A stretch of 64,000 bases of DNA from Cyclobacteriaceae bacterium (GTDB lineage Bacteria; Bacteroidota; Bacteroidia; Cytophagales; Cyclobacteriaceae), in the NCBI GenBank assembly GCA_028284125.1, contig JANQSI010000018.1, forward strand, positions 336,998 through 400,997, given 5' to 3'. The position numbers and the translations under genes are program-made. Under the pieces are notes generated by a model. That model was not told the origin of the DNA. It saw nothing but the letters and a program-made list of their open reading frames with translations, and searched no databases. This document shows, piece by piece, positions 41,444-59,943 of the stretch. The first letter of the stretch is position 1. The number at the start of each line of letters is the position of its first letter.

Positions 41444-41456
41444 TTGCAATATTTTA

Positions 41457-42146
41457 TTAGCGGCGAATAACTCGTACTTCAACCCTTCTGTTTAATGCTT
41501 TTGCTTCCGGAGTATCATCTCTTGAGAGCGGCTCAGTTCCCCCAAAAGCTCGTGTAAGAATCCTGGCTTTTTTGACCTTTTGGTCTACGAGGTATTCTTT
41601 GACCGCAACCACTCTTGCCTCAGACAATTGCATGTTTGCAGTAGCATTACCTCTAAAATCTGTATGGCCTTCCAGTTGTATTACAATGGCAGGGTTATCA
41701 TTCATCCAGGTGGCTAGCTCGTCCAATTCATTGTATGATTCACTAGAAATAGTGGCTCTTCCTGATGGGAAAATCAAGTTCTCCAGTTTGATCAGTTCTA
41801 CTTCATCCACCGGGAGGTAAAAATCTTCACTTTGTGAGAGATCTGAACCATTACCTGTAATAACGATTTCCTTATCGAATTTTAGGAACCCGGTTTTAGT
41901 TATGGAAATGTTGTAGGTATTTCCCTTCACCAGTGGCATGGAGTAAGTTCCGTCTGCTTGAGTTGCGATCATTCCCATATCATCAAAGTAGGGAAGCTTT
42001 TCATAAAGAATACTTGCTGCTACAACAGATGAATCCTTTGCACTGTAAATCTTCCCGGAAACGCTTATTAATGTATCAGTAGATAGTTGCGCATTTGCTT
42101 GAAGAATAAACAGGATTAATGAGAATCTTAAAGCTGTTTTTGGCAT
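41457..42146 (-). CDS. OmpA-family protein (carboxypeptidase-regulatory-like domain + OmpA C-domain)
   Basis: Signal peptide ending ANA-Q; VSGKIYSAKD; GHTDFRG, LSEARV, NRRVEV. Confidence 0.9.
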   Translation of the reverse strand: MPKTALRFSLILFILQANAQLSTDTLISVSGKIYSAKDSSVVAASILYEKLPYFDDMGMIATQADGTYSMPLVKGNTYNISITKTGFLKFDKEIVITGNGSDLSQSEDFYLPVDEVELIKLENLIFPSGRATISSESYNELDELATWMNDNPAIVIQLEGHTDFRGNATANMQLSEARVVAVKEYLVDQKVKKARILTRAFGGTEPLSRDDTPEAKALNRRVEVRVIRR

Positions 42147-46945: not shown

Positions 46946-49900
46946 TTATTTAAATCCAAACCCGTCATCGTCATCATCGGTTTTTTTGATGGTTTCGAAG
47001 CTTTCATCTTCCAGACTAATGTCGTCAGGAGACACAAGGTTGTAAGGTTCTGTAATCCCAAAGTACTTCAGGCGGAAATCATTTATAAATGACAATGTCT
47101 CATTCGTTTCCCCACCAACAAAGACAACTTCTCCTGGTTTGGCTTTTCCAATGTTTGATCTTGCCTCTATTTCTTCGTTAAACTTTGGATTTGAAGAAAA
47201 CATGACAATCTGATGCTTAGAATAAGCAATGTAATACCAAACACCAGGTGCGGCTTGTAGGAAGAGACTTAGCGCATCTTCTCCGGTCTCGTCTTTTTTA
47301 ATTTCTAAAAATCCGTCAATCTTCGCGTTAAGGTCTTCTCGAACCACATTGGAGATACCGATTTTGGTTGTGTTATGCCAGGCTTTATGTTCTTTGGACC
47401 ATTCCATTTTCATTCCAGAGATGAATAATGGCTTTTCAAATTCTCTTGAAGTGGAAACTAGCGGAGTATAATTCCTAAGACTACTTTCTTCGTAAATACG
47501 AGTTATTGATTCACTTGAAATGTTTGCCAGTTTATAGAGCAACTCAATGGAGATATCATTGGCCGGAGGAGGACCCATACGCTCGATCGTTTCTGTTAAG
47601 TCAAGCGCCATGATATCTAAGAGTATTGGCGGAACTTTGTAGTCCAGCATCATCATCACATCTGCCTGATATTCTTCCGTTTCTGTATTCCCAACTCCCA
47701 GTACAGATGCTTTTATCTGCATTTCTGTTGTGGTTGGTTTGAAGAAATTGACTGGTCCTTCAAAGACAACAGTTTTAGAACTGTCCACATACATCATAGT
47801 GGAACCAGCATATGATTCACCTAGTGACTTTAAATGATTTTCAATTTTGTAGACCTGAGTTGAGTCATCATAAGTTAACGTGCCACTCGCCTTGAAGAAA
47901 TCAAAGTCTGATTCTGTCTGTCGTTTCTGGACGAAAGTTGTATAAAATTCATCACGAATGTTTCTGTGTATTCCAGCGTACGCTGGTCCTCCACTTTCGA
48001 ATTGGGCATTGTCGAAAGGTAGCCTCACTTTCGGATCTTCATCCGACCTTAGGAAACTGACCCACTCTTCATGTCCTTCGAGATCTAATTTGAGATAACC
48101 ATCAAGTTCCAAGGCTTCCTTATATGCGTACATGGAAACACTTCCCTTGTATAAGAATCCTGGAGATATGATTAGATTTTGCTCTGCTTCGACTTCTCCT
48201 CCGGAAACGGTCATGAGCTGTGTTGGAACTACTCCTTTTCTGTCCGGTTCACCAATTGGGACTTCAACCAATTCGAAACTATCGAACCGAATATCGAACG
48301 TATCTAGACCGATGATTTGCTTGTACCAGGCATTTCCTTCGAATTTGTTTCTGGAAATAACTCGTATCGATGCTCTGTCCAAATAGTGATAGCCATTAAG
48401 TGTATCGATGATGATTTCAGCGTTCTCAAATTTTTGTAAAACAGAATTCGCAAGAATGGTTGTTTCGTTATTCTCCGGGATAATTCTAGAATCGGCAACA
48501 GTGATGTAAGGAATTCCCTGGACATTGAGTTTCTGGGAGTTGATATCGTAAACTGCCCGCTCGGCATTAAATGCTAAAGAATCTAGATCTTCCCTCGTTG
48601 TGTAGAAATAGGAATCTTCAATAGGGATTTCTTCTGGCTTGGTCATTATCACCACAGAATCTTCTAAATCCCACACCGCCTCTGTAATGGAAGTTTTCAT
48701 TTGTGCATAAGGAAATGAGATTGCTGCAATTCCTTGCGTTTCGGGACGGACCGTGGCGGTGTTGTTGGTTAGATCAAAGTCCAAACGAATATCATCTCCA
48801 GCCATTGCCGGCTTGTCAACACTGTCCGTAAGCACTTCAAAATCAGCGTGTCTTGCTGCGTATCTGAACTCCTCAAAAGTTAATTCATCAGATATTGCTC
48901 GAGATCCTCTTGTTAACATTGTTCCTCCACCGTAAACTCCTTTAGTAGTGATGTTCGCTTCTCCTTCTAGTTCTGCAGTTGAGTTGTAGAATTTGAACGG
49001 CTCATTGACGGTTCTCAAATACATACTATCCTTTCTTGGAAGCCAGTACATATCATAGGTGCCAAGAATCGCCTCCGGATAGCTGGCAGTGCCAATCGTA
49101 CCTGGACTTATTACTCCGCTTGTTCCGTCCGTCGTGACAGAATCCGGATAGTAAATAAAGTCATCTGAGTAAATCGTTGTGGTTAAAAAATCGATTTGAC
49201 CGAAACCTCGCATTCCTTGATTGGAGAGTCGAATTTCTTCATATGTTTTCGCATCAGTTCCATAAAGGTTATAACCTTCATCTGGGATCTTATGAACGAA
49301 TCCCAGCGATTGATCTTCTTGGGGATGTAACGTTTCTTCGAATGTGGGGAAAATTCCACCCGAGTTAAAAGTTCCTTCGAAGGAAATTGATTCACCGTCC
49401 TCCCGTTCAATGCTATCAATTTCGAATGGAGGAATTATAAAACGAACTGATTTATCGTACGCTCCATCCAGGATTTCTGGGCCATCGAAATAAACGGTCG
49501 CTTCACTGTCAGACACAAAGAATGGATAATTACCATTTTTTTCTTTTCCCGATTTGTTTTCTTTTTTGTCAATATAGAGAGTACCAGAAGTACTTGTCAA
49601 CTGATTTGCAAGCGTTGTTTTCTGAAAGCCAGCTTCTAAGTTCGTTGTATCTCTAAGCGGAATCGTGATTCGCATCGAATCAATTTCAGGCATTGTGAAC
49701 AGAAATTCTTCATAATCAAATTGATGCCCAATACCCTGATAGTCAAAATCTCCCGCATGAAGTACTCCATCAAATTCAAGGTTTCTGTCTCTCAATAACG
49801 TAACTGTGCTATCATACGGTGATGCATATACTTTGAAGTCACTTGTCAGATAGAATCTATGAACGCCATTAATATTCAGTTTTCCACTGTCTAGCTCAAT

Positions 49901-51964
49901 GTAAGCGTTTGCAACATCTGATATTTTCGAAGGAACCATTAGGTTATCAAAGTCTACCTTTTTGGCTGAGGCGTCATAGTAATGAAAAGCTTTCTCATGA
50001 AGTTTTAGCAGACCGGTTTCCGCATCATAGTCAGCGAAACCATATTGACGAAGAATTTTAGCTGCGCCTTTAGCATAATTCTCATCGATTTTATATTCTA
50101 AAGCCAACTCTCCAACATAGAATTCGGTAAGGTTGTACTTTCTGGCATAGAAGACTGCACTACTTATTGGATGGAAATTGAGAAACCGAGCGAGTTTTCT
50201 AAACCTAACTTCATCGAAGAAATCCTCAGATTCAAATGTTGCAGGGACCATGTCCTTTGCATCCATTACATCCATTCCAATGGAATCATTTTCCATGTTC
50301 CACTTAATTAAGTCAAGGTTCATGGTCACATTGAAATAGGAAGAATAATAAGGCGTAATGTTGGAATTTCTTAGTACTGTGAGCGTTTTTGTTGGAAGGT
50401 CATATTTGGCTTTGACGTTTTTATGATAGATAGAATCACTGCCATGAGCAATTGCGATCGAGCCATTTTCCATTGAAACTAGTGAGTCTCCTAGAACAAA
50501 GAATTTGGATTTGAGAACTACCTGGTTCCCTTTTCCGTCCAAAACTGTCAAGGTTCCTTCCTTTTTTGATACGGAACGACCAAATAGATTATTCCCTTGA
50601 ATTTCGATTCCACCTATATATGAGAGCTTCTCATCGGAGAATTTCACTTTCACATCATTTTCGTTAGAAGTGAAAATTGGAAACTTGCTCAGCGTTCTTC
50701 TGGGTCTGTTCGGACTTTTGAAAGTGAAAACTCCTTCCACGGAACCATCAAAGAGAAGATCAAAAGTGATGGAAGCGTTTGGTGTCCAGAAATCGGAACG
50801 ATCTTTTCTTAGGTAGTAATCTCCAAGTTGGACTTCAGCACCACGGAATTTACGGTTCCTTCCGGGCCAGTTTACAGTTCCTTTTGTACCAATGAAGTTC
50901 CGATTCTGCAAAAGAAAAGTCCCTCCAATATTGTTTATAACCATTGAATCATTTCTGGTCACGATCAGCATTTCAGCATCCGCAATTTCTATTACTGGAC
51001 CTTTTTTTTCAGGAGCTAGGTATTTGTTTCTGACATCAGCAAGGTGATCAATAATTGGCGCACCATAAACCGGTCGTTCGGGTGGAGGTGGTTCGTAGGT
51101 TGTTTGTGTGTCGTTTCCGAATTCATCATTACTTCCCCACGGATCATTGCTAGAATCTCCCCACGGATCGTTGTTGTTGTCACCCCACGGGTCGTTGTTG
51201 GTTGCCCACGGATCATTGCTGTTATCCCCCCAGGGATCATTATTGGTCGCCCACGGATCATTGCTATTATCGCCCCATGGGTCATTATTAGTTGCCCACG
51301 GATCGTTGTTGTTATCGTCCCAGGGATCATTATTATTAGCCCACGGATCGGCTAAAGAATCTACCGGTTGGGAATTCAATGCTGCTAATTCCTCATCCGT
51401 GATAAATCCGGAAGTGTCTTCTTCTACATATTCTTCATTGGCGTATGGATCATCTTCAATTTCTATCAGCTCATCCAAAAGTTTAAATGAATAAGAACCA
51501 CCAGGAGCCTGGACAAACAACGTTTTTTCGAGACTTAGATATCGTCTCGCGAAATAAATATTTAGTCCAAAAACAAAATCCTGGTATTCTTTTCTTGGAA
51601 GCGTTTCCAGCACTTGTTCGTTGATGTCTAGGAGACTGCTGAGTTCATCTCGCTGGAGATTTTCTTGGGCAACAGAGTAAGCGAGGTAGCTAAAATAGTG
51701 ATAGAAAAAGGGATAAAACTGATACCCTTTTCTCTGCATCCTCAATGCGATTGTGTGAATTTTATCTTGTTGTGCGGAGGTGAACTTCCCATCCCAGGCG
51801 TTTTGAAAATCAAAACCAATTTTCATGGCAGCTTCTGTTCCAACAGCACGCAATCTGGATATCGCTTGCGCTCTGAATTCATCCTTGTCTTCAGAGAAAC
51901 GCTGAGCCAGTACTTCCGAAAAAGTCAGTAAGACTAGAAATAATATAAGAACAGGCGATCGCAT
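46946..51964 (-). CDS. 1672-aa secreted hypothetical protein, beta-strand-rich, with a DPW-repeat insertion
   Basis: Signal peptide ending VLA-Q; long uninterrupted ORF directly downstream of prmA; no family that I recognise. Confidence 0.85.
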   Translation of the reverse strand: MRSPVLILFLVLLTFSEVLAQRFSEDKDEFRAQAISRLRAVGTEAAMKIGFDFQNAWDGKFTSAQQDKIHTIALRMQRKGYQFYPFFYHYFSYLAYSVAQENLQRDELSSLLDINEQVLETLPRKEYQDFVFGLNIYFARRYLSLEKTLFVQAPGGSYSFKLLDELIEIEDDPYANEEYVEEDTSGFITDEELAALNSQPVDSLADPWANNNDPWDDNNNDPWATNNDPWGDNSNDPWATNNDPWGDNSNDPWATNNDPWGDNNNDPWGDSSNDPWGSNDEFGNDTQTTYEPPPPERPVYGAPIIDHLADVRNKYLAPEKKGPVIEIADAEMLIVTRNDSMVINNIGGTFLLQNRNFIGTKGTVNWPGRNRKFRGAEVQLGDYYLRKDRSDFWTPNASITFDLLFDGSVEGVFTFKSPNRPRRTLSKFPIFTSNENDVKVKFSDEKLSYIGGIEIQGNNLFGRSVSKKEGTLTVLDGKGNQVVLKSKFFVLGDSLVSMENGSIAIAHGSDSIYHKNVKAKYDLPTKTLTVLRNSNITPYYSSYFNVTMNLDLIKWNMENDSIGMDVMDAKDMVPATFESEDFFDEVRFRKLARFLNFHPISSAVFYARKYNLTEFYVGELALEYKIDENYAKGAAKILRQYGFADYDAETGLLKLHEKAFHYYDASAKKVDFDNLMVPSKISDVANAYIELDSGKLNINGVHRFYLTSDFKVYASPYDSTVTLLRDRNLEFDGVLHAGDFDYQGIGHQFDYEEFLFTMPEIDSMRITIPLRDTTNLEAGFQKTTLANQLTSTSGTLYIDKKENKSGKEKNGNYPFFVSDSEATVYFDGPEILDGAYDKSVRFIIPPFEIDSIEREDGESISFEGTFNSGGIFPTFEETLHPQEDQSLGFVHKIPDEGYNLYGTDAKTYEEIRLSNQGMRGFGQIDFLTTTIYSDDFIYYPDSVTTDGTSGVISPGTIGTASYPEAILGTYDMYWLPRKDSMYLRTVNEPFKFYNSTAELEGEANITTKGVYGGGTMLTRGSRAISDELTFEEFRYAARHADFEVLTDSVDKPAMAGDDIRLDFDLTNNTATVRPETQGIAAISFPYAQMKTSITEAVWDLEDSVVIMTKPEEIPIEDSYFYTTREDLDSLAFNAERAVYDINSQKLNVQGIPYITVADSRIIPENNETTILANSVLQKFENAEIIIDTLNGYHYLDRASIRVISRNKFEGNAWYKQIIGLDTFDIRFDSFELVEVPIGEPDRKGVVPTQLMTVSGGEVEAEQNLIISPGFLYKGSVSMYAYKEALELDGYLKLDLEGHEEWVSFLRSDEDPKVRLPFDNAQFESGGPAYAGIHRNIRDEFYTTFVQKRQTESDFDFFKASGTLTYDDSTQVYKIENHLKSLGESYAGSTMMYVDSSKTVVFEGPVNFFKPTTTEMQIKASVLGVGNTETEEYQADVMMMLDYKVPPILLDIMALDLTETIERMGPPPANDISIELLYKLANISSESITRIYEESSLRNYTPLVSTSREFEKPLFISGMKMEWSKEHKAWHNTTKIGISNVVREDLNAKIDGFLEIKKDETGEDALSLFLQAAPGVWYYIAYSKHQIVMFSSNPKFNEEIEARSNIGKAKPGEVVFVGGETNETLSFINDFRLKYFGITEPYNLVSPDDISLEDESFETIKKTDDDDDGFGFK
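51137..51349 (-). repeat. Ten in-frame DPW motifs, mostly in alternating 21/24-nt units
   Basis: DPWANNN DPWDDNNN DPWATNN DPWGDNSN DPWATNN DPWGDNSN DPWATNN DPWGDNNN DPWGDSSN DPWGSN. Synonymous codons vary (GAT/GAC, CCG/CCC/CCA). Confidence 0.95.
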
Positions 51965-52846: not shown

Positions 52847-53611
52847 TCAATCGAACGCTTGCACAATGTCAATAAAGTCCCTTGATTTCAAACTAGCTCC
52901 ACCAATAAGTCCTCCATCTACATCTGATTGCGAAAAGATTTCCTTGGCATTTTCCGGCTTTACACTTCCACCATACAGAATAGAAATTGTATCAGCAGTT
53001 TCATTTGAATACTTTTCTGCAATTGTTTTTCGAATAAACGCGTGCATTTCTTGTGCTTGTTCTGCAGAAGCAGTTTTGCCGGTACCAATGGCCCAAACAG
53101 GTTCATAAGCGATGACCACTTTTGCGATCTGCTCTTCCGAAAGATGAAATAATGCATTTCGAACTTGCTCGCCTACAACCGATTCCTGGGTGTTGATTTC
53201 GCGAGATTCAAGACGTTCACCACAACAAAAAATTGGAGTTAAGTCGTTTTTGAGAACAGAGTTGATTTTTTCCGCAAGCAACGCATCTGATTCACCAAAG
53301 TATTCTCGACGTTCACTGTGGCCAATAATCACATGGCTTCCACCACACGATTTGATCATTGAGGCAGAAACTTCACCGGTGTAGGCTCCACTTTCATTCT
53401 GGTGGCAGTTTTGTGCACCGATAAGAAGTTTGTCTTTAAAAGGGATTTGATCATTTATACTTGATAAATGGATAAAAGGTGGGATTAAGATTACTTCTGT
53501 TTCGTTTTGAACTTCGTCCAGCATCAGCTGCATTACTTCAGAGGCAAGTTTTTGTCCTTCCTCCAATGAGCAGTTCATTTTCCAGTTTCCAGCTACAATT
53601 TGCTTTCTCAT
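52847..53611 (-). CDS. tpiA: Triosephosphate isomerase
   Basis: AGNWKMN, GAYTGEVS, IIGHSERR, IAYEPVWAIGTG, LYGGSV, GLIGGASL. Confidence 0.98.
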   Translation of the reverse strand: MRKQIVAGNWKMNCSLEEGQKLASEVMQLMLDEVQNETEVILIPPFIHLSSINDQIPFKDKLLIGAQNCHQNESGAYTGEVSASMIKSCGGSHVIIGHSERREYFGESDALLAEKINSVLKNDLTPIFCCGERLESREINTQESVVGEQVRNALFHLSEEQIAKVVIAYEPVWAIGTGKTASAEQAQEMHAFIRKTIAEKYSNETADTISILYGGSVKPENAKEIFSQSDVDGGLIGGASLKSRDFIDIVQAFD

Positions 53612-53756
53612 TTTTCGCTACATCTTTTTGGGACTGCAATGATACAAATAGTCGGTGTGATGAAGACAGTTTTTGCGTTCATAGAATCCTATTATTGATA
53701 TGCAAATAGGAATAGCTGAGATTTAGTAAATTGGGGCGCTAAATCAGCTATGAATC

Positions 53757-54158
53757 ATGAATAACGTGCTGAAATTTAAGGCCTTAGTCGGAATAGCGAA
53801 GGCTGATGGTGAATTTGATCCAACCGAAAAGAGCTTTATACTGAGGTTGGCCGATCTTGATGGAATTTCTCCCGAAGAACTCAAAGAAATTTTAAGTACA
53901 AAGGGCAAAACCAAAGATTTCATTAGGGATTTGGACTATGATGATAAAATCAACATCCTCATAGATGTTGTCCAACTCATGAAGATTGATGGAAAAGTAG
54001 TTCTTAGCGAAATTAAGTTTTGTGAGAGGCTTGCTAAAATTCTCGGGTTCGAAGAAAAGTCAATTGGATTTCTATCTGGAATGATTGACAATAATCCTGA
54101 AGTTTCAATTAATGTTGGAAGAATTAGCTATCGGATGAAAAAGTACTTGCTCGAGTAA
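53757..54158 (+). CDS. TerB-family (tellurite-resistance-like) protein
   Basis: LVGIAKADGEFDPTE and LMKIDGKVVLSE duplicated TerB motifs. Confidence 0.85.
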   Translation: MNNVLKFKALVGIAKADGEFDPTEKSFILRLADLDGISPEELKEILSTKGKTKDFIRDLDYDDKINILIDVVQLMKIDGKVVLSEIKFCERLAKILGFEEKSIGFLSGMIDNNPEVSINVGRISYRMKKYLLE

Positions 54159-54266
54159 GAAAGCCTATAGCTTTTCTTTCCGGCCTTCTTCTCCACCTTC
54201 CGGACCTAAATCTTGTTGAAAACAAGCAAAGTGATGATAACTCCACTGGCTCACAGCATCATTGAA

Positions 54267-54731
54267 TTAATTTGTCTGAGTTTCTGTGTTTTGATAATAC
54301 AAGAAGACCCTGATGGGAAAAATTAGGAGCATAAACCCTGGGTGATAGAGTAAGGATATAAGCCGATAAATAGTAGCTCGATATTGGATCAATTCGAATA
54401 AGCTAGCGACAGCACTTGTTACCAAGAGACCAATACCTATCAGAAGAAAAATTTTTGCGATTCTTGAGCTAAGCAGCTCTCTGGCAAAAACGTAGTTGAA
54501 ATAGAATCGAATAAGAAAGGTGAATTTCCCACTGATCCATTCTGGAGAAATCTGATTGAAATGCATGAAGTCTATAACTCGATCGATCTGATTGAGAGAA
54601 TTTTCAAGTAGTGGAAACCTAAAAATTGATTTGAAAAAATCTACAATGAAAAAAGGATAATCACCAAAGTAGGCGAAAACAACAAAACCTAGCCAGAGTA
54701 CTATTAGCCATGTACTAACTGTTTTTTGCAA
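54267..54731 (-). CDS. Exosortase-associated membrane protein
   Basis: Four hydrophobic segments, C-terminal LLYHPGFMLLIFP; start overlaps the exosortase 3' end. Confidence 0.65.
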   Translation of the reverse strand: MQKTVSTWLIVLWLGFVVFAYFGDYPFFIVDFFKSIFRFPLLENSLNQIDRVIDFMHFNQISPEWISGKFTFLIRFYFNYVFARELLSSRIAKIFLLIGIGLLVTSAVASLFELIQYRATIYRLISLLYHPGFMLLIFPIRVFLYYQNTETQTN

Positions 54732-55242
54732 AATGCTTCTTGTTAATGACTTCTATCCACAAGAACCATAGGACGCCAATGATTGCGTAAACAAATAACA
54801 GATAGGTGTACTTATGATTGAATTCAAAAGTGGCGGGACTTTTTAAGTAATTGAACCCGAGGAGATATACTCTTACCACGTTTACGAAAAACAAAATGGA
54901 TAACCCAAGAAAACCATAAACGATCTTATGAATCCATTTACCTGGAGTAATTACTATAAAGCCTATGAACAAAACAAAGAGTTCTAGCCCATTGCAAGGA
55001 TCTCCAATAAGCACGGATTTAGTGTTGGAAACATATAAGTATAGCCCGTCAAAAGAACTACTGGCTCCTAACCAATTAAAAACTCCAGCTGCACTTGCTC
55101 CAACTTTATTTGTAAGCCATGGATTCAGGGATGTGAATGGTAAGATAAATCCCCAATACAGAGCTTTCCACAAGATTATTAAAGACACAGCCCTGATTGC
55201 AAATCGGTACTGAGCCGAGATTTTGATTCGGGGGAACTTCAA
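54715..55242 (-). CDS. Exosortase/archaeosortase-family transpeptidase (short, single-domain)
   Basis: VLIGDP-C-NGLEL (Cys), VNVV-R-VYLL (Arg) and FN-H-KYTY (His) match the family's conserved catalytic residues in a multi-TM protein. Confidence 0.9.
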   Translation of the reverse strand: MKFPRIKISAQYRFAIRAVSLIILWKALYWGFILPFTSLNPWLTNKVGASAAGVFNWLGASSSFDGLYLYVSNTKSVLIGDPCNGLELFVLFIGFIVITPGKWIHKIVYGFLGLSILFFVNVVRVYLLGFNYLKSPATFEFNHKYTYLLFVYAIIGVLWFLWIEVINKKHFAKNS

Positions 55243-55248
55243 TTCGAC

Positions 55249-55437
55249 CTAGCTTCTTTTATGATCCCTGTATTTTTTTATTCCATAACCAACTCCAGCA
55301 GCGGCTAATAAACTTAAGCCGCCATCAATTGGTACTCCAGGAGGAGGTGGGGGAAGACCATCTTGGGCAAATGCTAATGCAGCAAACCTAAGGAGAAAAA
55401 ATAAGGTGAGTGTTAACTTTAAAAATATTGACTGCAT
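55249..55437 (-). CDS. 62-aa micro-protein with a PID-GG C-terminal sorting signal (PID-CTERM-type)
   Basis: Signal peptide (..AALAFA-Q), DGLPPPPPGV linker, PIDGG motif, hydrophobic LSLLAAAGVGYGI, basic KKYRDHKRS; adjacent to the exosortase. Confidence 0.85.
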   Translation of the reverse strand: MQSIFLKLTLTLFFLLRFAALAFAQDGLPPPPPGVPIDGGLSLLAAAGVGYGIKKYRDHKRS

Positions 55438-55438
55438 C

Positions 55439-57079
55439 TTAATTATTTATAATAATCTTTTGGGTATGAATGATCTGGCCATTTTCCATGGTGGCAATGA
55501 AAATTCCAGAGAGGTCATTGATCGGATACCCTATTCTGCCATCCTTTATTTTCCAGGATTTTATGTGTTGTCCATTTAATGAGTGTAGCGAAACAGTTGC
55601 GTCAGGTTCAAGGTCATCAATGTCCTTCAAAAAGAGCCGGTCTTCGCGAACATATAGGATAGGAGAGCGGTCAACTTCTTCAACGTTGAGAGGAAGTTGC
55701 ACCTGAATTTTAATTGCCTCTGAATGCATGGCCGGCATTGAGAACGAAATTTCACTATCTGGATGAAGTACCTCACTTTCTCCCGTAAGAGTATTTGTTA
55801 CTTTAACCGAATACTCAGGGTCAATGTCTTCTACGTTCAAAACACTGATTGTTACTTCTTGATCTTCGGCAAGATTAAAATGGACAGGAATGGAGTACGC
55901 TAAATCATAAGGCAGAGCGATGAACTCATATGCTTTTTCATCATAAGAAATGTAAGGTTTAAGCAAACTTTCGTCTTGTGTGGAAAAAGAATAGGCATCA
56001 CCTAGTTTGTCATATGCTCCAGTGAAGTCATTTCCTACGAGTATTGCGGTATAATTTGTCGTGTCTGTCCCAGCACCAAAGTTCAGCTCAATTTTACCCG
56101 ATGTTGAAGCCTTTCGATAAAATTGAGCATTATCGGTATTGAGATCATCTGGATGAAAATCGATGCTATAGATTCCATCTCCTAGAGATGGGTAGTCAAA
56201 TTGCACAAAAAAGGCTTGTCCAGCAGCAAGTTCCTCTAGCTGTCCCAGCGTTCCGTTAGAAACGATGTAGGCTCCACTGGTCGCATCCCAGACATAAACT
56301 GTCCCAAAAGTATTTGTGATATTTCTTGTTAAGAATGAAAGAACATCCATTGTAGATGTGTAGGGATTGGCAACTAAGAAATGAGAAGATTGATTGCCTC
56401 TGGTTCCACTATTTGAGACTGTGCCTGAAACACTTATGGGTTGTGTGTTTGGTGTTCCAATAAACGTCACTGTACCAGGTGAACTTGCAGCGTATCCAGT
56501 TCCAGGAGTGATAGGTGCACTGGCACTTGCGAGATCCCATGTGCCATATCCACTAGTTGAAACTTCGTTATAAATAAACTCGGAACCTGTATAGGTGGCA
56601 TCAGAAACAGGCGAGCCAATCAGACTTGAACCTGAGGATTGGCCTTCCACAGCAAATTGAATGTTTCCGTCATTATCATCAAAATGCATTGTAGTAAAAG
56701 TATTATCCACCAGAAGTTTACCACCGGGCTGAACATCAATTTGAATGAAATCAGCAGCGGCTTCAAATGTGACGACATTTCCGACTTGCAATAAGCCTCC
56801 CGATTCGATGACAATTTTTGCACCGGATTCGATTTCGATTGTACCTGAACACAAAACTGCTCCTCCGCTGGTAATAGTTAGCGTATCGTTTGCGGAGATG
56901 GTAGTTACTCCAATAATCACTGGTTCTTGGCTACTTATTGTCTCAGTTCCGAAAGTGCGTCCTCCAAACCCTGGAAGCGTGATTTGTGCTTCCACCAAAA
57001 AGGGTAGGCCAATTATTAAACAAGCAATTTTTTTGAAAAACTTGAATCGATTCATATGTCGCATTTTGAAATCCGACAC
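55439..57079 (-). CDS. Secreted protein with a type IX secretion (type A) C-terminal sorting domain
   Basis: Signal peptide (..FLVEA-Q); LVANPY...VYVWDA...GQAFFV module common in T9SS cargo; C-terminal VSLHSLNGQHI...LSGIFIATM...TQKIIINN. The real start may be ATG 57064 or 57055. Confidence 0.8.
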   Translation of the reverse strand: MSDFKMRHMNRFKFFKKIACLIIGLPFLVEAQITLPGFGGRTFGTETISSQEPVIIGVTTISANDTLTITSGGAVLCSGTIEIESGAKIVIESGGLLQVGNVVTFEAAADFIQIDVQPGGKLLVDNTFTTMHFDDNDGNIQFAVEGQSSGSSLIGSPVSDATYTGSEFIYNEVSTSGYGTWDLASASAPITPGTGYAASSPGTVTFIGTPNTQPISVSGTVSNSGTRGNQSSHFLVANPYTSTMDVLSFLTRNITNTFGTVYVWDATSGAYIVSNGTLGQLEELAAGQAFFVQFDYPSLGDGIYSIDFHPDDLNTDNAQFYRKASTSGKIELNFGAGTDTTNYTAILVGNDFTGAYDKLGDAYSFSTQDESLLKPYISYDEKAYEFIALPYDLAYSIPVHFNLAEDQEVTISVLNVEDIDPEYSVKVTNTLTGESEVLHPDSEISFSMPAMHSEAIKIQVQLPLNVEEVDRSPILYVREDRLFLKDIDDLEPDATVSLHSLNGQHIKSWKIKDGRIGYPINDLSGIFIATMENGQIIHTQKIIINN

Positions 57080-57144
57080 AAATCAATATTCTTATCAGTT
57101 GCTAAAACTCACAAAGTGGTATACACAAGGTTAGCGAGTGATTT

Positions 57145-59943
57145 CTAAGCTAGTTTTTCTGCTAAGTGAAATGCCGTGTGGTTGTCTTTTAGTTTTACCA
57201 AGTCCTCAGGTAATCCGGAAAAACAGATATGGCCGCCCTCATCTCCACCTTCAGGACCAAGATCAATAATCCAGTCCGCATTTTTGATGATCTCAGTGTT
57301 GTGCTCAATGATGACAACTGAATTCCCTCCATCAATCAAAGCATTGAGCGCATCCAGCAATTTCTTTATGTCGTGGAAATGTAGACCTGTTGTAGGCTCA
57401 TCAAAAATGAAAAGTATATGGTCCGAGGTATTGGCTTTCGTCCCTTTTCCTAAGAATGAGGCAAGTTTAACACGCTGTGCTTCTCCACCACTTAAAGAAT
57501 TGGAACTCTGTCCAAGTTTGATATAGCCAAGCCCAACATCAAACAGCGGTTGGATTTTATTTGTAATTGCAGTCCGTCCTTCAAAAAATTCTAAGGCTTC
57601 CTGAACTGACAGATCAAGTACATCCGAAATGTTCTTGTCATTATATGTGACTTCAAGGATTTCCTTTTTAAATCTTTTGCCGCCACAACTTTCACATGTA
57701 AGGTGTAGATCGGCCATAAACTGCATTTCGATTTTTACGGTGCCTTCACCTTCGCAAACTTCGCATCTGCCACCGTCTACGTTAAAAGAAAAATGTGCTG
57801 GTTTGAATCCATTCTTTTTAGAAACAGATTGCTCTGAAAATAGCTGTCGAATTGCATCGTAAGCTTTTACGTATGTCACCGGATTAGATCGCGAACTTTT
57901 TCCAATCGGATTTTGATCTACAAACTCGACTTGCGTGATCTTTTTGTAGTGGCCGGAAAGGTTGTCAAATTTTCCGGTGGCTTCACCGACAATCCCAAGG
58001 AGCTTACTAATCGAAGGAGTCAATATTTTTCTTACAAGTGTCGATTTTCCAGACCCACTGACTCCAGTCACCACGGTTATAACGCCGAGTGGAATCTCAA
58101 CATTGATATTTTTCAGGTTATGCTCTCGAGCTCCTTCAATCATGATCGATCGTCTCCATGGTCTTCGCTTTTCTGGGACATCAATTGTTTCTTCGCCTTT
58201 CAAGTATTTGGAAGTGTATGAATTGTCCTTACCATTGATCTGATCGACACTTCCCTGGAAAACGAGCTCGCCACCAAAAATCCCAGCATCTGGTCCGATA
58301 TCAATGATTTGATCTGCTGCTTCCATCACTTTTTCTTCGTGCTCAACAACGATTACTGAGTTTCCAACGTCTCGTAATGACTTCAGAACTTCTATCAAAC
58401 GTTCCGTATCTCTTGGATGTAAGCCGATGCTTGGTTCATCCAAAATGTACATGGACCCAACTAAAGCACTACCCAAAGAAGTTGCTAGTTTGATACGTTG
58501 AAATTCTCCACCGGAAAGAGTATTTGTTAGTCTATTTAGAGTTAAATATCCCAAGCCTACCTTATCGAGATAAGAAAGTCGGTTTCGGATTTCGTCAAGA
58601 ATACGCTTGGCTATTTGCTCGTCGTTTTTCGAAACCTTTAATGAATTAAAGAGCGGGAGCAACTTATTGATTGGCAGAAGTACCAAGTCAGTGATAGAAT
58701 ATCCGTCTATTTTGACATAGGATGCATCTTTTCTTAGTTTCGTTCCTCGACAATCGGGACAGGTGGTTTTACCTCGATATCTGGACAGCATCACTCGATA
58801 TTGGATCTTGTGCAATTTTGATTCAAGGAAAGAAAAGAATGCATTGATGCCTTTGAAATACTCGTTACCTGTCCAAAGTAATTCGTATTCTTCTTTTGTT
58901 AACTCCGAAATCGGTCGATGAATTGGGAAGTCAAATTTGATTCCGTCTCTAATCAGAGGCTCTACCCATTTTTTTGTTGTTTCTCCCTTCCACGGAGCAA
59001 TTGCGCCTTCGTAGATTGACAAGTTTCGGTCTGGAATTACTAAGTCTGGATCAATTCCTAAGACACGACCAAAACCCTCACATGTCTTACAAGCTCCATA
59101 GGGATTATTGAAGCTAAAGAAGTTTACACTTGGTTCTTCAAATATGATGTCATCCAGTTCGAACCGATCTGAGAAACTTTTTTTCTTTCCATCAACAATT
59201 GTAACGAAACAATCCCCTTCACCTTCAAAGAAAGCTGTCTGTACAGAATCTGCTAGACGGAATTGAGTTGCCTCATCTGGTTGAACAGTGGCTCGATCAA
59301 TTAATATTTCAATATTTCCCTTTGGCTGCTCTCCGGAATTGAGAATGTCTTCTATGAATGCTACTTCATCTTTGATAACAACTCTTGTATAACCCTTGCT
59401 GAGTAGAATTTCGAGTTCCTTTTTTAGCGTTCGTTTTTCCTTTTGCTTTAAAGGTGTGGTGATGGTGAGACGAGTTCCTTCATCATGAGAAAGGATGTAA
59501 TCCACCACATCAGTAACCGTATCTTTTTTTACTTCTTTTCCGGAAACCGGAGAAATGGTTTTTCCAATTCGTGCAAATAGAAGTTTCAGATAATCGTAAA
59601 TCTCAGTTGTAGTTCCAATCGTTGATCGTGGATTTCTGGCGCTTACTTTTTGCTCGATCGCAATGGCTGGAGCCACTCCTTTGATATAATCTACCTCTGG
59701 TTTTTCCATCCGACCGAGGAATTGACGAGCATAGGAACTCAGGCTTTCTACATACTTTCGTTGCCCTTCTGCAAAAAGCGTATCGAATGCCAAAGAAGAT
59801 TTACCTGAACCTGACAGTCCGGTTATAACCACCAGTTGATCGCGTGGAATTGCAACATCGAGGTTTTTAAGGTTGTTGACTCGTGCACCTTTAATGATGA
59901 TGAATTTTTTGGGATCAAGATTGTCAACCTTCGGTGCTTTCAA
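57145..59943 (-). CDS. uvrA: Excinuclease ABC subunit A
   Basis: GARVNNLKN, GLSGSGKSSL, LSGGEFQR, zinc fingers (CKTCEG..CPDCRG; CEVCEG..CESCGG), GVSGSGKST, LSGGEAQR. Confidence 0.97.
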   Translation of the reverse strand: MKAPKVDNLDPKKFIIIKGARVNNLKNLDVAIPRDQLVVITGLSGSGKSSLAFDTLFAEGQRKYVESLSSYARQFLGRMEKPEVDYIKGVAPAIAIEQKVSARNPRSTIGTTTEIYDYLKLLFARIGKTISPVSGKEVKKDTVTDVVDYILSHDEGTRLTITTPLKQKEKRTLKKELEILLSKGYTRVVIKDEVAFIEDILNSGEQPKGNIEILIDRATVQPDEATQFRLADSVQTAFFEGEGDCFVTIVDGKKKSFSDRFELDDIIFEEPSVNFFSFNNPYGACKTCEGFGRVLGIDPDLVIPDRNLSIYEGAIAPWKGETTKKWVEPLIRDGIKFDFPIHRPISELTKEEYELLWTGNEYFKGINAFFSFLESKLHKIQYRVMLSRYRGKTTCPDCRGTKLRKDASYVKIDGYSITDLVLLPINKLLPLFNSLKVSKNDEQIAKRILDEIRNRLSYLDKVGLGYLTLNRLTNTLSGGEFQRIKLATSLGSALVGSMYILDEPSIGLHPRDTERLIEVLKSLRDVGNSVIVVEHEEKVMEAADQIIDIGPDAGIFGGELVFQGSVDQINGKDNSYTSKYLKGEETIDVPEKRRPWRRSIMIEGAREHNLKNINVEIPLGVITVVTGVSGSGKSTLVRKILTPSISKLLGIVGEATGKFDNLSGHYKKITQVEFVDQNPIGKSSRSNPVTYVKAYDAIRQLFSEQSVSKKNGFKPAHFSFNVDGGRCEVCEGEGTVKIEMQFMADLHLTCESCGGKRFKKEILEVTYNDKNISDVLDLSVQEALEFFEGRTAITNKIQPLFDVGLGYIKLGQSSNSLSGGEAQRVKLASFLGKGTKANTSDHILFIFDEPTTGLHFHDIKKLLDALNALIDGGNSVVIIEHNTEIIKNADWIIDLGPEGGDEGGHICFSGLPEDLVKLKDNHTAFHLAEKLA

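What the first reader, a model, noticed from the sequence alone, without database searches (positions are those of the whole stretch)
54267..57079. Four-gene operon joining a T9SS cargo protein to a dedicated exosortase sorting system
Gene order is T9SS-CTD protein (1-nt gap), 62-aa PID-GG sorting-signal micro-protein (6-nt gap), exosortase with intact Cys/Arg/His, and an overlapping partner membrane protein. Exosortases/archaeosortases cleave motif-TM-basic C-termini and are thought to attach a lipid; T9SS cargo is normally anchored by PorU to an A-LPS-type acceptor. Tight coupling suggests the two pathways intersect. One option is that the exosortase makes a lipidated mini-peptide that serves as an anchor, acceptor or chaperone for the co-encoded cargo. 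I recall family names PID-CTERM and exosortase X for such loci in curated annotation, but I know of no experimental function.
Basis: partly seen in the sequence, partly recalled or inferred. Interest (0 to 1): 0.8.

Follow-up and report, generated by a model that had tools for sequence, protein, structure and literature searches.

The report
Adhesin, micro-protein and exosortase cassette
Four tightly packed genes encode a RemA-like surface adhesin exported by the type IX secretion system, a 62-residue protein that is little more than an exosortase sorting signal, the exosortase, and its membrane partner; across Bacteroidota such micro-proteins sit next to these adhesins far more often than chance allows, which makes them a testable candidate for how the adhesins are held on the cell.

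Summary
Four minus-strand genes lie 1 nt apart, 6 nt apart and 17 nt overlapping.

- **Cargo (546 aa):** it has a borderline T9SS type A C-terminal domain (CTD). Its family profile matches the C-terminal ~580 residues of the F. johnsoniae gliding adhesins RemA and RemZ.
- **Micro-protein (62 aa):** it is a clear PID-CTERM protein.
- **Exosortase:** it has Cys83/Arg124/His143 and hits XrtX best, but below the curated cut-off.
- **Partner:** it is a divergent XrtX-associated membrane protein.

The proposed coupling to T9SS holds in three independent samples:
- In loci found through the exosortase, 17 of 44 micro-genes have a T9SS cargo directly upstream, against 6 of 149 other flank genes.
- In loci found through the cargo, 30 of 75 RemA-like genes are directly followed by such a micro-gene, against 0 of 79 control ORFs.
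- In loci found through the micro-protein, 6 of 11 have a T9SS cargo upstream.

Two things are new. The micro-protein is linked more tightly to the adhesin than to the exosortase. In 7 of those 11 loci it also sits directly upstream of Wza–Wzc polysaccharide-export genes.

PID-CTERM tails were found only on micro-proteins. The mechanism, an exosortase-processed short peptide acting as adhesin anchor or adaptor, is inferred and has not been shown. No publication on PID-CTERM or XrtX was found.

The parts
55439..57079 (-). Cargo gene. This is the longest ORF (546 aa, GTG start); the likely true start is ATG at 57055, giving the signal peptide MNRFKFFKKIACLIIGLPFLVEA|Q. It is a secreted protein of the RemA/RemZ C-terminal-region family.
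   Evidence: ORF. Alternative start. A search of 1.84 billion representative proteins gave 165 relatives. The profile of 20 of them matches RemZ 8gl8_D at E 1e-74 (residues 536-1114) and RemA 8gl6_D at E 4e-71 (residues 844-1435). The window protein alone has no significant PDB sequence match; the only listed hit has E 0.76.
55445..55615 (-). T9SS type A C-terminal sorting domain of the cargo (residues 489-545), with the conserved Lys541 six residues from the end.
   Evidence: TIGR04183 scores 22.7 bits against a cut-off of 23. The orthologues in L001-L003 score 38.1, 36.2 and 30.3 bits. K541 is invariant and G525 nearly invariant in the family alignment. 12 of 20 family members carry PF18962. 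Lauber et al. describe a single highly conserved Lys in type A CTDs that contacts PorV (PMC10994853).
55249..55437 (-). PID-CTERM micro-protein gene (62 aa). Signal peptide residues 1-24 (55366-55437), Pro-rich linker QDGLPPPPPGV (55333-55365), PIDGG (55318-55332), hydrophobic segment LSLLAAAGVGYGI (55279-55317), basic tail KKYRDHKRS (55252-55278).
   Evidence: NF046080 scores 50.2 bits against a cut-off of 26. The precomputed Pfam family is PF28310 PID_CTERM. Segment coordinates were verified. It is the only such tail in the 64-kb window.
54715..55242 (-). Exosortase gene (175 aa, TTG start), a divergent XrtX. Catalytic-type residues: Cys83 (54994-54996), Arg124 (54871-54873), His143 (54814-54816).
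   Evidence: NF046081 150.1 bits (cut-off 170), TIGR04178 47.6 bits (cut-off 23), PF09721 42.8 bits (cut-off 25.7). Invariant C/R/H. The AF2 model has pLDDT 79.8 and is helical with one beta-hairpin.
54267..54731 (-). Partner membrane protein gene (154 aa, TTG start, overlaps the exosortase gene by 17 nt). It is a remote relative of the XrtX-associated membrane protein family.
   Evidence: It has no NCBIfam hit itself, while NF046082 hits 51 of 64 partners in the same position in other loci. Profile-profile comparison of the window clade against the other partners gives probability 94.5%, E 8e-8, over the C-terminal 90 columns. A hydropathy scan gave three clusters of windows above threshold; I read four hydrophobic segments by eye. 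Orthologues are present in L001-L003.

Best explanation
**What it is.** This is a self-contained four-gene surface-attachment cassette of a T9SS-bearing Bacteroidota bacterium from a coral metagenome; its nearest relatives are Marinoscillum.
- Gene 1 encodes a Sec-exported adhesin-like protein. It is built from the module that forms the C-terminal ~580 residues of the F. johnsoniae gliding adhesins RemA and RemZ, and it ends in a type A T9SS sorting domain.
- Gene 2 encodes a 62-residue protein made of a signal peptide, an 11-residue Pro-rich spacer and a PID-CTERM signal (PIDGG, one membrane helix, a basic tail).
- Genes 3 and 4 encode a divergent XrtX exosortase and its small membrane partner.

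**Proposed mechanism.** The steps after export are inferred.
1. Both the adhesin and the micro-protein cross the inner membrane through Sec.
2. The micro-protein stays anchored by its C-terminal helix.
3. XrtX, working with its partner, cleaves at PIDGG through Cys83. By analogy with archaeosortase A and rhombosortase, it transfers the remaining ~14-residue Pro-rich peptide to a membrane or envelope acceptor, most likely a lipid.
4. This small anchored peptide then acts one-for-one as the dedicated tether, acceptor or adaptor for the co-encoded adhesin. It would keep the adhesin on the cell surface after the T9SS has exported it and its CTD has been handled by PorV/PorU.

In most genomes one XrtX encoded elsewhere would serve several adhesin-plus-micro-protein pairs. 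In this window all parts are in one operon.
For: **Shown: identities and spacing**.

**Shown: the four genes move together.** The cassette is conserved in L001-L003 with non-syntenic flanks.

**Shown: the PID tail is confined to micro-proteins.**
- All 54 tail hits in 43 sources are on proteins of 59 to about 105 aa.
- The best 120 of 283 database hits are all 40-98 aa.
- The part between the signal peptide and the motif is short, rich in Pro, Asp, Ala and Gly, and poorly conserved. This fits a spacer rather than a folded domain.

**Shown: coupling to T9SS cargo in three differently anchored samples.**
- Exosortase-centred: 17 of 44 against 6 of 149.
- Cargo-centred: 30 of 75 against 0 of 79, p 1e-11, with gaps of mostly 0-90 nt on the same strand.
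- Micro-protein-centred: 6 of 11.

**Shown: the same cargo family recurs across distant lineages.** RemA-C-like proteins lie upstream of the micro-gene in distant XrtX clades: the window clade, L011, L035, L042 and L068/L069.

**Supporting literature.**
- In F. johnsoniae, deleting xrtF or its partner gives the same phenotype pattern as deleting porU or porZ: biofilm much reduced and zorbs abolished (PMC10936215).
- The RemA CTD gives both surface anchoring and release (PMC12618676).
- A discussion in PMC9950754 notes that anionic LPS has not been found in Flavobacterium.
- Type B cargo genes are followed by a cognate shuttle gene that is needed stoichiometrically. This is a precedent for cargo-plus-helper gene pairs.
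- PorU-type attachment uses the alpha-amine of an amino acid on a carrier (PMC7468200).
Against: - There is no experimental data on any PID-CTERM or XrtX component. Cleavage, the acceptor and any contact with the adhesin are all inferred.
- By my reading of the sequences, the predicted mature peptide usually starts with Gln. From my own knowledge, N-terminal Gln is commonly cyclised in Bacteroidota. The peptide also has no conserved Lys, so it offers no obvious amine for PorU-type transpeptidation.
- XrtX acts at the inner membrane, whereas T9SS attachment happens at the outer membrane. A transport step would therefore be needed.
- 45 of 75 RemA-like genes have no micro-gene after them.
- To my knowledge RemA and RemZ themselves are not next to an exosortase, and F. 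johnsoniae has XrtF, not XrtX. I could not inspect that genome.
- 7 of 11 micro-genes sit in front of Wza-Wzc export genes. This points at polysaccharide rather than, or as well as, the adhesin.
- The window cargo's CTD is just under the curated threshold (22.7 against 23).
Confidence: 0.45

Rival explanations
1. **Polysaccharide-centred reading.** The XrtX-processed micro-peptide is a primer, cap or membrane anchor for a Wza/Wzc-exported surface polysaccharide, or it is attached to that polysaccharide. The RemA-like protein is linked only because it binds the polysaccharide, as a lectin-type adhesin would. T9SS and exosortase would then meet at the level of the matrix, not by covalent anchoring of the cargo.
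For: - 7 of 11 micro-genes found through the micro-protein are the first gene before Poly_export (Wza), an ~800-aa protein in the position of Wzc (Wzz domain seen only in the L166 fragment), a NusG-like gene and an Asn-synthase-like gene. Two of these also have a T9SS cargo upstream.
- 13 of 149 flank genes of XrtX loci are polysaccharide priming sugar transferases.
- Proteins that look like Wzc-type tyrosine kinases, judged from their C-terminal Walker-like and GYGYGY tails, lie divergently upstream of XrtX in L024, L060 and L080.
- PEP-CTERM/XrtA systems are classically tied to exopolysaccharide loci (cited in PMC7468200 and PMC10936215).
- From memory of Shrivastava et al. 2012, which is not held in the library, RemA-dependent aggregation needs wza/wzc-type genes.
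Against: - The window and its three cassette relatives have no Wza/Wzc next to the operon.
- The seven Wza-linked loci are mutually similar, and by my reading of the gene lists several are syntenic (L161 and L169 clearly; L168 shares only DciA and the downstream operon). They therefore count as few independent events.
- The adhesin link is seen in all three samples and across more lineages.
- The window cargo lacks the N-terminal part of RemA, where from memory the lectin domain lies.
Confidence: 0.25
2. **Neighbourhood without a shared mechanism.** The PID-CTERM/XrtX system and the T9SS cargo are independent envelope functions. They are co-located and co-regulated because both serve surface colonisation, and the micro-protein has a role of its own after processing.
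For: - Most XrtX genes are not next to a cargo, and most cargo-plus-micro pairs are not next to XrtX.
- Six micro-genes have fmt upstream, one has a histidine kinase upstream, and six have a divergently oriented large protein without a T9SS CTD.
Against: - The enrichment runs in both directions and is large: 39% against 4%, and 40% against 0%.
- The pairing is same-strand with very short gaps and recurs in distant lineages and in tandem cargo-micro arrays (L133, L135, L144).
- Flank genes around the pair vary while the pair persists.
Confidence: 0.15
3. **The micro-protein is not a consumed substrate.** It could instead be a small regulatory or structural membrane subunit. Examples: the helix left after cleavage, or the uncleaved protein, modulates XrtX, Wzc or the T9SS; or it is the precursor of a released signalling peptide.
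For: - The 'mature' part is only about 7-40 residues, which is unusual for a sorted protein.
- The most conserved part is the motif plus the helix (GLSLLxAAGxGYGIKK).
Against: - The tripartite tail (motif, helix, basic cluster) placed exactly at the C-terminus is the hallmark of sortase-type substrates. It co-occurs with an exosortase gene in 44 of 81 exosortase loci, counting the window.
- From my own knowledge, no precedent exists for an exosortase signal acting as a subunit.
Confidence: 0.1

Closest known systems
PID-CTERM / exosortase X (XrtX) / XrtX-associated membrane protein (NCBIfam NF046080, NF046081, NF046082; Pfam PF28310)
   Same: The micro-protein passes the PID-CTERM model. The exosortase's best model is XrtX by about 100 bits. 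The gene order micro-protein, exosortase, partner is the commonest arrangement in 44 of 81 exosortase loci, counting the window.
   Different: The exosortase scores 150.1, below the cut-off of 170. The partner gets no hit from NF046082 and is linked only by profile-profile comparison. The window clade is a divergent branch. These are curated models only; I found no paper or experiment.
F. johnsoniae RemA (Fjoh_0808) and RemZ (Fjoh_0803), T9SS type A gliding adhesins (PDB 8gl6, 8gl8)
   Same: The profile of the cargo family aligns over 520 positions with the C-terminal ~580 residues of both proteins, including the CTD that binds PorV/SprA (PMC10994853).
   Different: The window protein is only 546 aa. 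It lacks the N-terminal 530-840 residues of RemZ and RemA, which from memory include the lectin domain of RemA. It shows no significant direct pairwise match to them. Whether remA or remZ are followed by a micro-gene could not be checked.
XrtF and the exosortase F system-associated protein of Flavobacteriia (TIGR04128, TIGR04127; Fjoh_1448/1449)
   Same: It is a small exosortase of similar size (model length 174) followed directly by a small membrane partner, in Bacteroidota. Deletion mutants phenocopy porU and porZ mutants, which parallels the T9SS link seen here.
   Different: The window enzyme scores 50 against the XrtF cut-off of 90. The authors of PMC10936215 state that the substrates are still to be found. 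Here the substrate is obvious and adjacent.
PEP-CTERM / XrtA (EpsH) systems
   Same: An exosortase with Cys/Arg/His and a tripartite C-terminal signal, with a neighbourhood link to exopolysaccharide genes.
   Different: PEP-CTERM tails sit on many large, diverse proteins per genome. PID-CTERM tails were found only on micro-proteins. The motif differs and XrtA models give no hit.
Archaeosortase A / PGF-CTERM and rhombosortase / GlyGly-CTERM
   Same: These are the experimentally studied cases. Rhombosortase cleaves at the motif and the new C-terminus is joined to a moiety containing glycerophosphoethanolamine (as summarised in PMC7468200; original paper PMC6219818). From my own knowledge, archaeosortase A substrates become lipid-anchored. 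They are the basis for the inferred chemistry here.
   Different: Their substrates are full-size proteins, and no T9SS is involved. Rhombosortase is an unrelated enzyme class.
Type B CTD cargo with a PorP/SprF-like shuttle gene directly downstream
   Same: A T9SS cargo gene is followed on the same strand by a dedicated helper gene whose product is needed in step with the cargo (PMC12618676).
   Different: The helper there is an outer-membrane beta-barrel that binds a type B CTD. Here the cargo has a type A CTD and the helper is a 60-100-aa exosortase substrate.

Membership tests
PID-CTERM sorting domain (NF046080 / PF28310) | HMM score above the curated cut-off | tested here: met
   50.2 bits against a cut-off of 26, residues 35-58. 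The precomputed Pfam family is PF28310.
PID-CTERM sorting domain (NF046080 / PF28310) | Tripartite tail at the extreme C-terminus (P-I-D-G-G, hydrophobic helix, basic cluster) preceded by a signal peptide | tested here: met
   PIDGG at 36-40, LSLLAAAGVGYGI at 41-53, KKYRDHKRS at 54-62, and an N-terminal hydrophobic leader ending AFA|Q.
PID-CTERM sorting domain (NF046080 / PF28310) | Cleavage by the cognate exosortase | not testable with these tools
   This needs protein chemistry.
Exosortase/archaeosortase superfamily (TIGR04178, PF09721) | Signature HMMs above the cut-off | tested here: met
   TIGR04178 47.6 bits against 23; PF09721 42.8 bits against 25.7.
Exosortase/archaeosortase superfamily (TIGR04178, PF09721) | Conserved Cys, Arg and His in a polytopic membrane protein | tested here: met
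   C83, R124 and H143 are invariant in 17 and in 78 sequences. The model is helical and membrane-like.
Exosortase X (NF046081) | HMM score at or above the curated cut-off of 170 | tested here: not met
   150.1 bits. The orthologue in L002 scores 142.3. Other loci score 168-208. XrtX is still the best model by about 100 bits.
Exosortase X (NF046081) | Adjacent PID-CTERM substrate gene | tested here: met
   The micro-gene ends 6 nt upstream.
Exosortase X (NF046081) | Adjacent XrtX-associated membrane protein (NF046082) | tested here: inconclusive
   The window protein gets no HMM hit, while 51 of 64 positional counterparts do. Profile-profile comparison gives 94.5% probability, E 8e-8, over the C-terminal 90 columns only.
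T9SS type A cargo (TIGR04183 / PF18962) | CTD HMM above the cut-off | tested here: not met
   TIGR04183 scores 22.7 against 23. Pfam gives no hit at E<=1.
T9SS type A cargo (TIGR04183 / PF18962) | A CTD present in orthologues and family, with the conserved C-terminal Lys | tested here: met
   L001-L003 score 38.1, 36.2 and 30.3 bits. 12 of 20 family members carry PF18962. The profile aligns to the end of the RemA and RemZ CTDs. K541 is invariant.
T9SS type A cargo (TIGR04183 / PF18962) | A T9SS is present in the organism and the protein is exported by it | not tested
   Among the neighbours scanned, no T9SS core gene was found; the OmpA-like proteins score far below the PorE cut-off. The rest of the genome is not available.
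RemA/RemZ adhesins | Homology over the C-terminal module | tested here: met
   The family profile matches RemZ at E 1e-74 and RemA at E 4e-71. The window protein matches its own family HMM at E 3e-143; this is circular, since it is one of the 20 sequences in that alignment.
RemA/RemZ adhesins | Full-length architecture, including the N-terminal lectin-bearing region, and a role in gliding | tested here: not met
   The protein is 546 aa, against 1436 and 1114 aa. Only the C-terminal module is shared, and there is no direct pairwise hit. Function was not tested.
XrtF system (TIGR04128 + TIGR04127) | HMM scores above the cut-offs | tested here: not met
   XrtF scores 50 against 90. The partner gets no TIGR04127 hit.

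The most novel reading that the evidence does not exclude
PID-CTERM micro-proteins are the missing cell-surface anchors of RemA-type, type A T9SS adhesins in Bacteroidota that lack Porphyromonas-style A-LPS attachment. In this reading, an inner-membrane exosortase (XrtX, and by extension perhaps XrtF) converts a gene-encoded micro-protein into a lipid- or glycan-linked Pro-rich peptide, and each adhesin molecule is then joined to, or held by, one such peptide. That would be a protein-encoded, one-per-cargo anchor connecting two sorting systems previously thought to be separate. It would also explain why xrtF mutants phenocopy porU and porZ mutants.
Probability: 0.2. Interest if true: 0.9.

Novelty: new variant of a known kind. 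Interest (0 to 1): 0.72.

Why it matters
**Open questions it touches.**
- How type A T9SS cargo such as RemA is retained on the surface outside Porphyromonas and Tannerella appears to be open. The RemA CTD gives both anchoring and release (PMC12618676), and anionic LPS has not been found in Flavobacterium (PMC9950754).
- What the small Bacteroidota exosortases do is also open. XrtF has no substrates reported so far in F. johnsoniae, yet it is needed for biofilm formation and surface colonisation (PMC10936215).

**What this locus contributes.** It places a candidate substrate, its enzyme and a candidate client adhesin in one operon. The comparative data show that the adhesin and micro-protein pairing is general.

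**What that allows.** A few clean knock-outs plus mass spectrometry would test the idea. It also gives annotators a rule: a signal-peptide-plus-PID-CTERM micro-ORF after a RemA-like T9SS gene, or before wza and wzc, is a real gene. If the link proves covalent, it would be a new way of anchoring secreted proteins.

Tried and rejected
- **Cargo homologue search.** The word-indexed protein search with the cargo found only the cargo itself. The exhaustive HMMER search was needed.
- **Cargo structure.** The single-sequence AlphaFold model of the cargo was unusable (pLDDT 39.7). Relatives from the exhaustive search could not be handed to the predictor, so no fold search of the cargo was done.
- **Exosortase structure.** The model was good (pLDDT 79.8), but Foldseek against the PDB found nothing (best E 1.0).
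- **Operon boundaries.** The sigma-70 promoter and terminator scan of 53600-57500 gave no more sites than shuffled sequence, and Bacteroidota promoters are not covered. Operon status therefore rests on spacing and conservation only.
- **Expression.** The only runs holding the locus are DNA runs of a coral metagenome.
- **Literature.** The search for PID-CTERM, XrtX and exosortase X found no paper on PID-CTERM or XrtX. Shrivastava et al. 2012 on RemA is not held.
- **Alternative idea: PID-negative loci are XrtF.** Rejected, because they score above the XrtX cut-off.
- **Alternative idea: PID-negative loci carry a different micro-signal.** Rejected for the loci inspected; their upstream small ORFs look like SecG to me or are noise.
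- **Alternative idea: PIGGG/PIGSG tails belong to another curated CTERM family.** Rejected, because they are weak PID-CTERM hits only.
- **Alternative idea: a conserved third gene follows cargo-plus-micro pairs.** Rejected. The downstream genes are unrelated to each other apart from three XrtX genes.

Full report
**1. The observation**

One search shows four consecutive minus-strand ORFs at exactly the coordinates given:
- 55439-57079 (546 aa)
- 55249-55437 (62 aa)
- 54715-55242 (175 aa)
- 54267-54731 (154 aa)

They are separated by 1 nt and 6 nt, and the last two overlap by 17 nt; one search verified the junctions. Upstream on the same strand lies uvrA, as I read the 932-aa ORF at 57145-59943 (its sequence carries the ABC-ATPase and zinc-finger motifs typical of UvrA). 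Downstream, a 133-aa gene converges on the cluster.

NCBIfam results:
- The 62-aa protein is a PID-CTERM protein (NF046080, 50.2 bits, cut-off 26).
- The 175-aa protein is an exosortase. It passes TIGR04178 (47.6 bits against 23) and Pfam PF09721 (42.8 against 25.7).
- Its best specific model is XrtX (NF046081) at 150.1 bits. The next models are XrtH at 51.7 and XrtF at 50. The XrtX score is nevertheless below the curated cut-off of 170.
- The 546-aa protein matches the T9SS type A sorting domain TIGR04183 at 22.7 bits, against a cut-off of 23.
- The 154-aa protein has no family hit.

Cys83, Arg124 and His143 are invariant in alignments of 17 and of 78 relatives. I confirmed the codons at 54994-54996, 54871-54873 and 54814-54816. 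The cargo most likely starts at ATG 57055, which gives a standard signal peptide ending VEA|Q. Only one PID tail exists in the 64-kb window.

**2. Anatomy of the micro-protein**

The 62 residues divide as follows:
- leader: MQSIFLKLTLTLFFLLRFAALAFA
- spacer: QDGLPPPPPGV
- motif: PIDGG
- hydrophobic segment: LSLLAAAGVGYGI
- basic tail: KKYRDHKRS

After signal-peptide removal and cleavage at the motif, only about 14 residues would remain.

This is general. Every PID tail found in 43 related loci is on a protein of 59 to about 105 aa. The best 120 of 283 database hits are all 40-98 aa and all carry Pfam PF28310 PID_CTERM. The stretch between leader and motif is short, rich in Pro, Asp, Ala and Gly, and variable. 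The motif and helix (PIDGGLSLLxAAGxGYGIKK) are the conserved part. PID-CTERM therefore differs from PEP-CTERM, PGF-CTERM or LPXTG: it does not decorate large proteins, and the substrate is essentially a spacer.

**3. The exosortase and its partner in other genomes**

A scan of one genome per species returned 80 loci, nearly all labelled Bacteroidota; a few MAG titles (Halioglobus, Rickettsiales, Bifidobacterium) look like mislabelled bins.
- 43 loci carry a PID micro-gene, in nearly all of them directly upstream of the exosortase (two divergent copies in L007; elsewhere in the locus in L060).
- A 130-180-aa membrane-protein gene follows the exosortase, overlapping or abutting it, in 63 of 78 loci.
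- 51 of 64 such partners hit NF046082, 'XrtX-associated membrane protein'.
- The window's partner does not hit that model. A profile of the window clade does match a profile of the others at 94.5% probability, E 8e-8, over the C-terminal 90 columns.

Loci without a micro-gene still encode bona fide XrtX (182-208 bits in five such loci; L007, whose micro-genes are divergent, scores 167.8). The window clade (window, L001-L003; two Marinoscillum and one MAG) scores 142-150.

The window therefore holds a divergent branch of the XrtX system (tree). In L001-L003 the same four genes occur in the same order with gaps of 6-7 nt, but the surrounding genes share nothing with the window. The four genes move as a unit.

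**4. What the cargo is**

The word-indexed search found nothing. An exhaustive HMMER search of 1.84 billion representative proteins found 165 relatives. Most are longer proteins matched through their C-terminal ~450-500 residues, right to the end.
- An alignment of 20 of them has an invariant Lys (K541 in the window protein) and a nearly invariant Gly in the last 25 residues.
- 12 of the 20 carry PF18962.
- The profile matches F. johnsoniae RemZ (8gl8_D, residues 536-1114, E 1e-74) and RemA (8gl6_D, residues 844-1435, E 4e-71).
- The window protein alone gives no significant PDB hit, so the relation is transitive but well supported.

RemA is a mobile surface adhesin and RemZ is its homologue. 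Both are type A T9SS substrates whose CTD was seen bound to PorV/SprA, with a single highly conserved Lys contacting PorV (PMC10994853). The orthologues of the window cargo in L001-L003 pass the CTD model at 30-38 bits.

I conclude that the cargo is a short, RemA-C-terminal-module protein with a type A CTD that scores marginally on its own. It is not a RemA orthologue, because it lacks the N-terminal 500-850 residues.

**5. Is the T9SS link more than chance? Three samples anchored on different genes**

(a) *Exosortase-anchored sample.*
- Among loci with a micro-gene (43 plus the window), the gene directly upstream on the same strand has a type A CTD at E<=0.01 in 17. These are the window, L001-3, L019, L026, L032, L035-L038, L042-L044, L047 (weak), L068 and L069; L032, L036, L037, L038 and L044 were assigned by homology to L019/L026 within the 13-of-22 count.
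- The rate among other flank genes of at least 200 aa from the same loci is 6 of 149.
- Fisher's test gives p = 3e-8.
- The loci are related, so I also counted lineages. At least six separate XrtX clades show the arrangement.
- In the window clade, L011, L035, L042, L049 (a fragment), L068 and L069, the upstream protein belongs to the same RemA-C-like family.
- The L019-L044 clade uses a different T9SS cargo family.
- The remaining upstream neighbours are fmt (6), a histidine kinase (1), divergently oriented large proteins, most with choice-of-anchor repeats, and no CTD (6), and a few others.

(b) *Cargo-anchored sample.* A metagenome scan with the cargo-family alignment gave 80 loci.
- Of 75 RemA-C-like ORFs with a complete C-terminus and at least 300 nt of downstream sequence, 30 are directly followed on the same strand by a micro-ORF. 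That micro-ORF has a leader, a Pro/Gly-rich spacer and a tail of the form P-[IVL]-[DG]-G-G, helix, basic cluster.
- None of 79 control ORFs of at least 300 aa in the same loci is followed by such a micro-ORF (p = 1e-11).
- Only three of these pairs have XrtX next to them (L093, L105, L117). Otherwise the downstream genes are unrelated to one another.
- Tandem arrays of cargo-plus-micro pairs occur in L133, L135 and L144.
- Tails with PIGGG or PIGSG are weak PID-CTERM hits (13-28 bits).

(c) *Micro-protein-anchored sample.* I looked up eleven database hits that lie on long contigs.
- Six have a T9SS cargo directly upstream, and five of those are RemA-C-like by my family HMM.
- Seven have Poly_export (Wza), an ~800-aa protein in the position of Wzc (Wzz domain seen only in the L166 fragment), a NusG-like gene and, in five of them, an Asn-synthase-like gene (an epimerase gene in the other two) directly downstream. 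Two loci have both features.
- None has an exosortase within 5 kb.
- Several Wza-linked loci look syntenic with one another to me (L161 and L169 clearly), so they count as few independent events.

The tightest unit is the adhesin plus the micro-protein. XrtX with its partner, and Wza/Wzc, are alternative neighbours. This fits the usual pattern, known for other exosortase systems, of one sortase per genome serving several substrates encoded elsewhere. The window is a compact case in which everything lies together.

**6. How it most likely works**

*Shown by sequence:*
- Both the cargo and the micro-protein have Sec leaders.
- The micro-protein ends in a motif-helix-basic signal of the sortase-substrate type.
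- The enzyme has the exosortase Cys, Arg and His.
- The partner has, by my reading, four hydrophobic segments; the hydropathy scan gave three clusters above threshold.

*Inferred from family knowledge:*
- XrtX cleaves at PIDGG through a thioacyl intermediate and passes the new C-terminus to an acceptor.
- For rhombosortase the acceptor contains glycerophosphoethanolamine (summarised in PMC7468200).
- For archaeosortase A it is a lipid (my own knowledge).

*Inferred from neighbourhood:*
- The resulting anchored Pro-rich peptide works one-for-one with the RemA-like adhesin as tether, acceptor or adaptor.

*Consistent literature:*
- Deleting xrtF or its partner in F. johnsoniae gives exactly the phenotype row of porU and porZ deletions (PMC10936215).
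- The RemA CTD confers both anchoring and release (PMC12618676).
- Anionic LPS is not known in Flavobacterium (PMC9950754).
- PorU-type attachment uses an amino-acid alpha-amine on a carrier (PMC7468200).
- Type B cargo genes have a stoichiometric helper gene directly downstream.

*Weak points:*
- The mature peptide usually begins with Gln, which is likely to be cyclised, and it has no conserved Lys. A simple 'peptide amine as PorU nucleophile' model is therefore doubtful.
- The enzyme is in the inner membrane while attachment happens at the outer membrane.
- The Wza/Wzc context suggests that the peptide may instead, or also, serve a surface polysaccharide that such adhesins bind.

I put 0.45 on the adhesin-adaptor reading, 0.25 on the polysaccharide-centred reading, 0.15 on mere co-location and 0.1 on a role as a non-substrate.

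**7. Comparison with what is known, and novelty**

The families PID-CTERM, XrtX and the XrtX-associated protein exist as curated models. No paper or experiment on them was found. The window's enzyme and partner fail the curated thresholds, so I file them as a divergent XrtX-like system, not as members by the strict test.

What appears new is the following:
- The cargo is a RemA/RemZ-type module.
- PID-type micro-genes are paired with such T9SS adhesins in about 40% of cases, whichever gene anchors the sample.
- There is a second link, to Wza/Wzc export genes.
- PID-CTERM substrates were found only as micro-proteins.

This is a new variant of a known kind of system (exosortase sorting). It offers a concrete, testable bridge to T9SS surface attachment.

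**8. Dead ends**
- The single-sequence structure of the cargo was unusable.
- The exosortase model has no match in the PDB.
- The promoter and terminator scan was uninformative.
- There is no RNA data: the window is from a coral metagenome.
- The RemA 2012 paper is not held.
- The F. johnsoniae genome could not be inspected.

Noticed in passing
L161-L163, L166-L169 (micro-gene at 5001-52xx in each): In Chitinophagaceae-like contigs (two records are labelled Ferruginibacter or Chitinophagaceae), the PID-CTERM micro-gene is the first gene before Wza (Poly_export), an ~800-aa protein in the position of Wzc, a NusG/UpxY-like gene and, in five of the seven, an Asn-synthase-like gene. In L166 and L167 a T9SS cargo also lies directly upstream.
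   Followed up: partly
L133, L135, L144: Tandem arrays in which a RemA-C-like T9SS gene plus a micro-gene is repeated twice on the same strand.
   Followed up: no
L084, L098, L109, L134, L135, L149, L156; L106, L114, L144, L159: Micro-proteins after RemA-like genes with variant motifs. PIGGG/PIGSG tails score 13-28 bits on PID_CTERM. APINDY, APIEDY and APIDEH tails match no curated model. They may be served by other exosortases such as XrtY.
   Followed up: partly
L004-L030, L041, L051, L057, L062, L064, L066: Bona fide XrtX plus partner pairs (where scored: L005, L012 and L051 reach 188-208 bits) with no micro-gene nearby. In the L041 group the upstream gene looks like secG to me. L024, L060 and L080 have what looks like a Wzc-type tyrosine kinase gene divergently upstream (L060 does carry a PID-type micro-gene about 500 nt downstream).
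   Followed up: partly
window 46946-51964 (-): A 1672-aa secreted-looking protein with an Asn-Asp-Pro-Trp (NDPW) repeat block near residues 200-290. It has no NCBIfam hit at E<=1e-5.
   Followed up: no
window 39389-42146 (-): Two adjacent OmpA-domain proteins (697 and 229 aa). Their best models are the CHU_0125 OmpA-like family and PorE of the T9SS, both far below cut-off (224 against 620; 194 against 600).
   Followed up: no
window 61832-63034 (+): A GT4 glycosyltransferase with weak similarity to a PEP-CTERM/XrtA-system glycosyltransferase (TIGR04063, 62 bits against a cut-off of 442), 4.7 kb from the cassette. It is the only polysaccharide-type gene seen near it.
   Followed up: no
L034, L045, L046, L050, L052, L061: Large proteins (1006-1391 aa) divergently oriented from the micro-gene. 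Most carry choice-of-anchor Z repeats or LIC10067-like repeats (none detected in L050), and none has a T9SS CTD. They share a ~200-aa region with the T9SS cargo of the L019-L044 clade.
   Followed up: partly
window, whole: The only public runs holding the locus are DNA runs of a coral metagenome study. The source contig is 611 kb. GC content is about 40%.
   Followed up: yes
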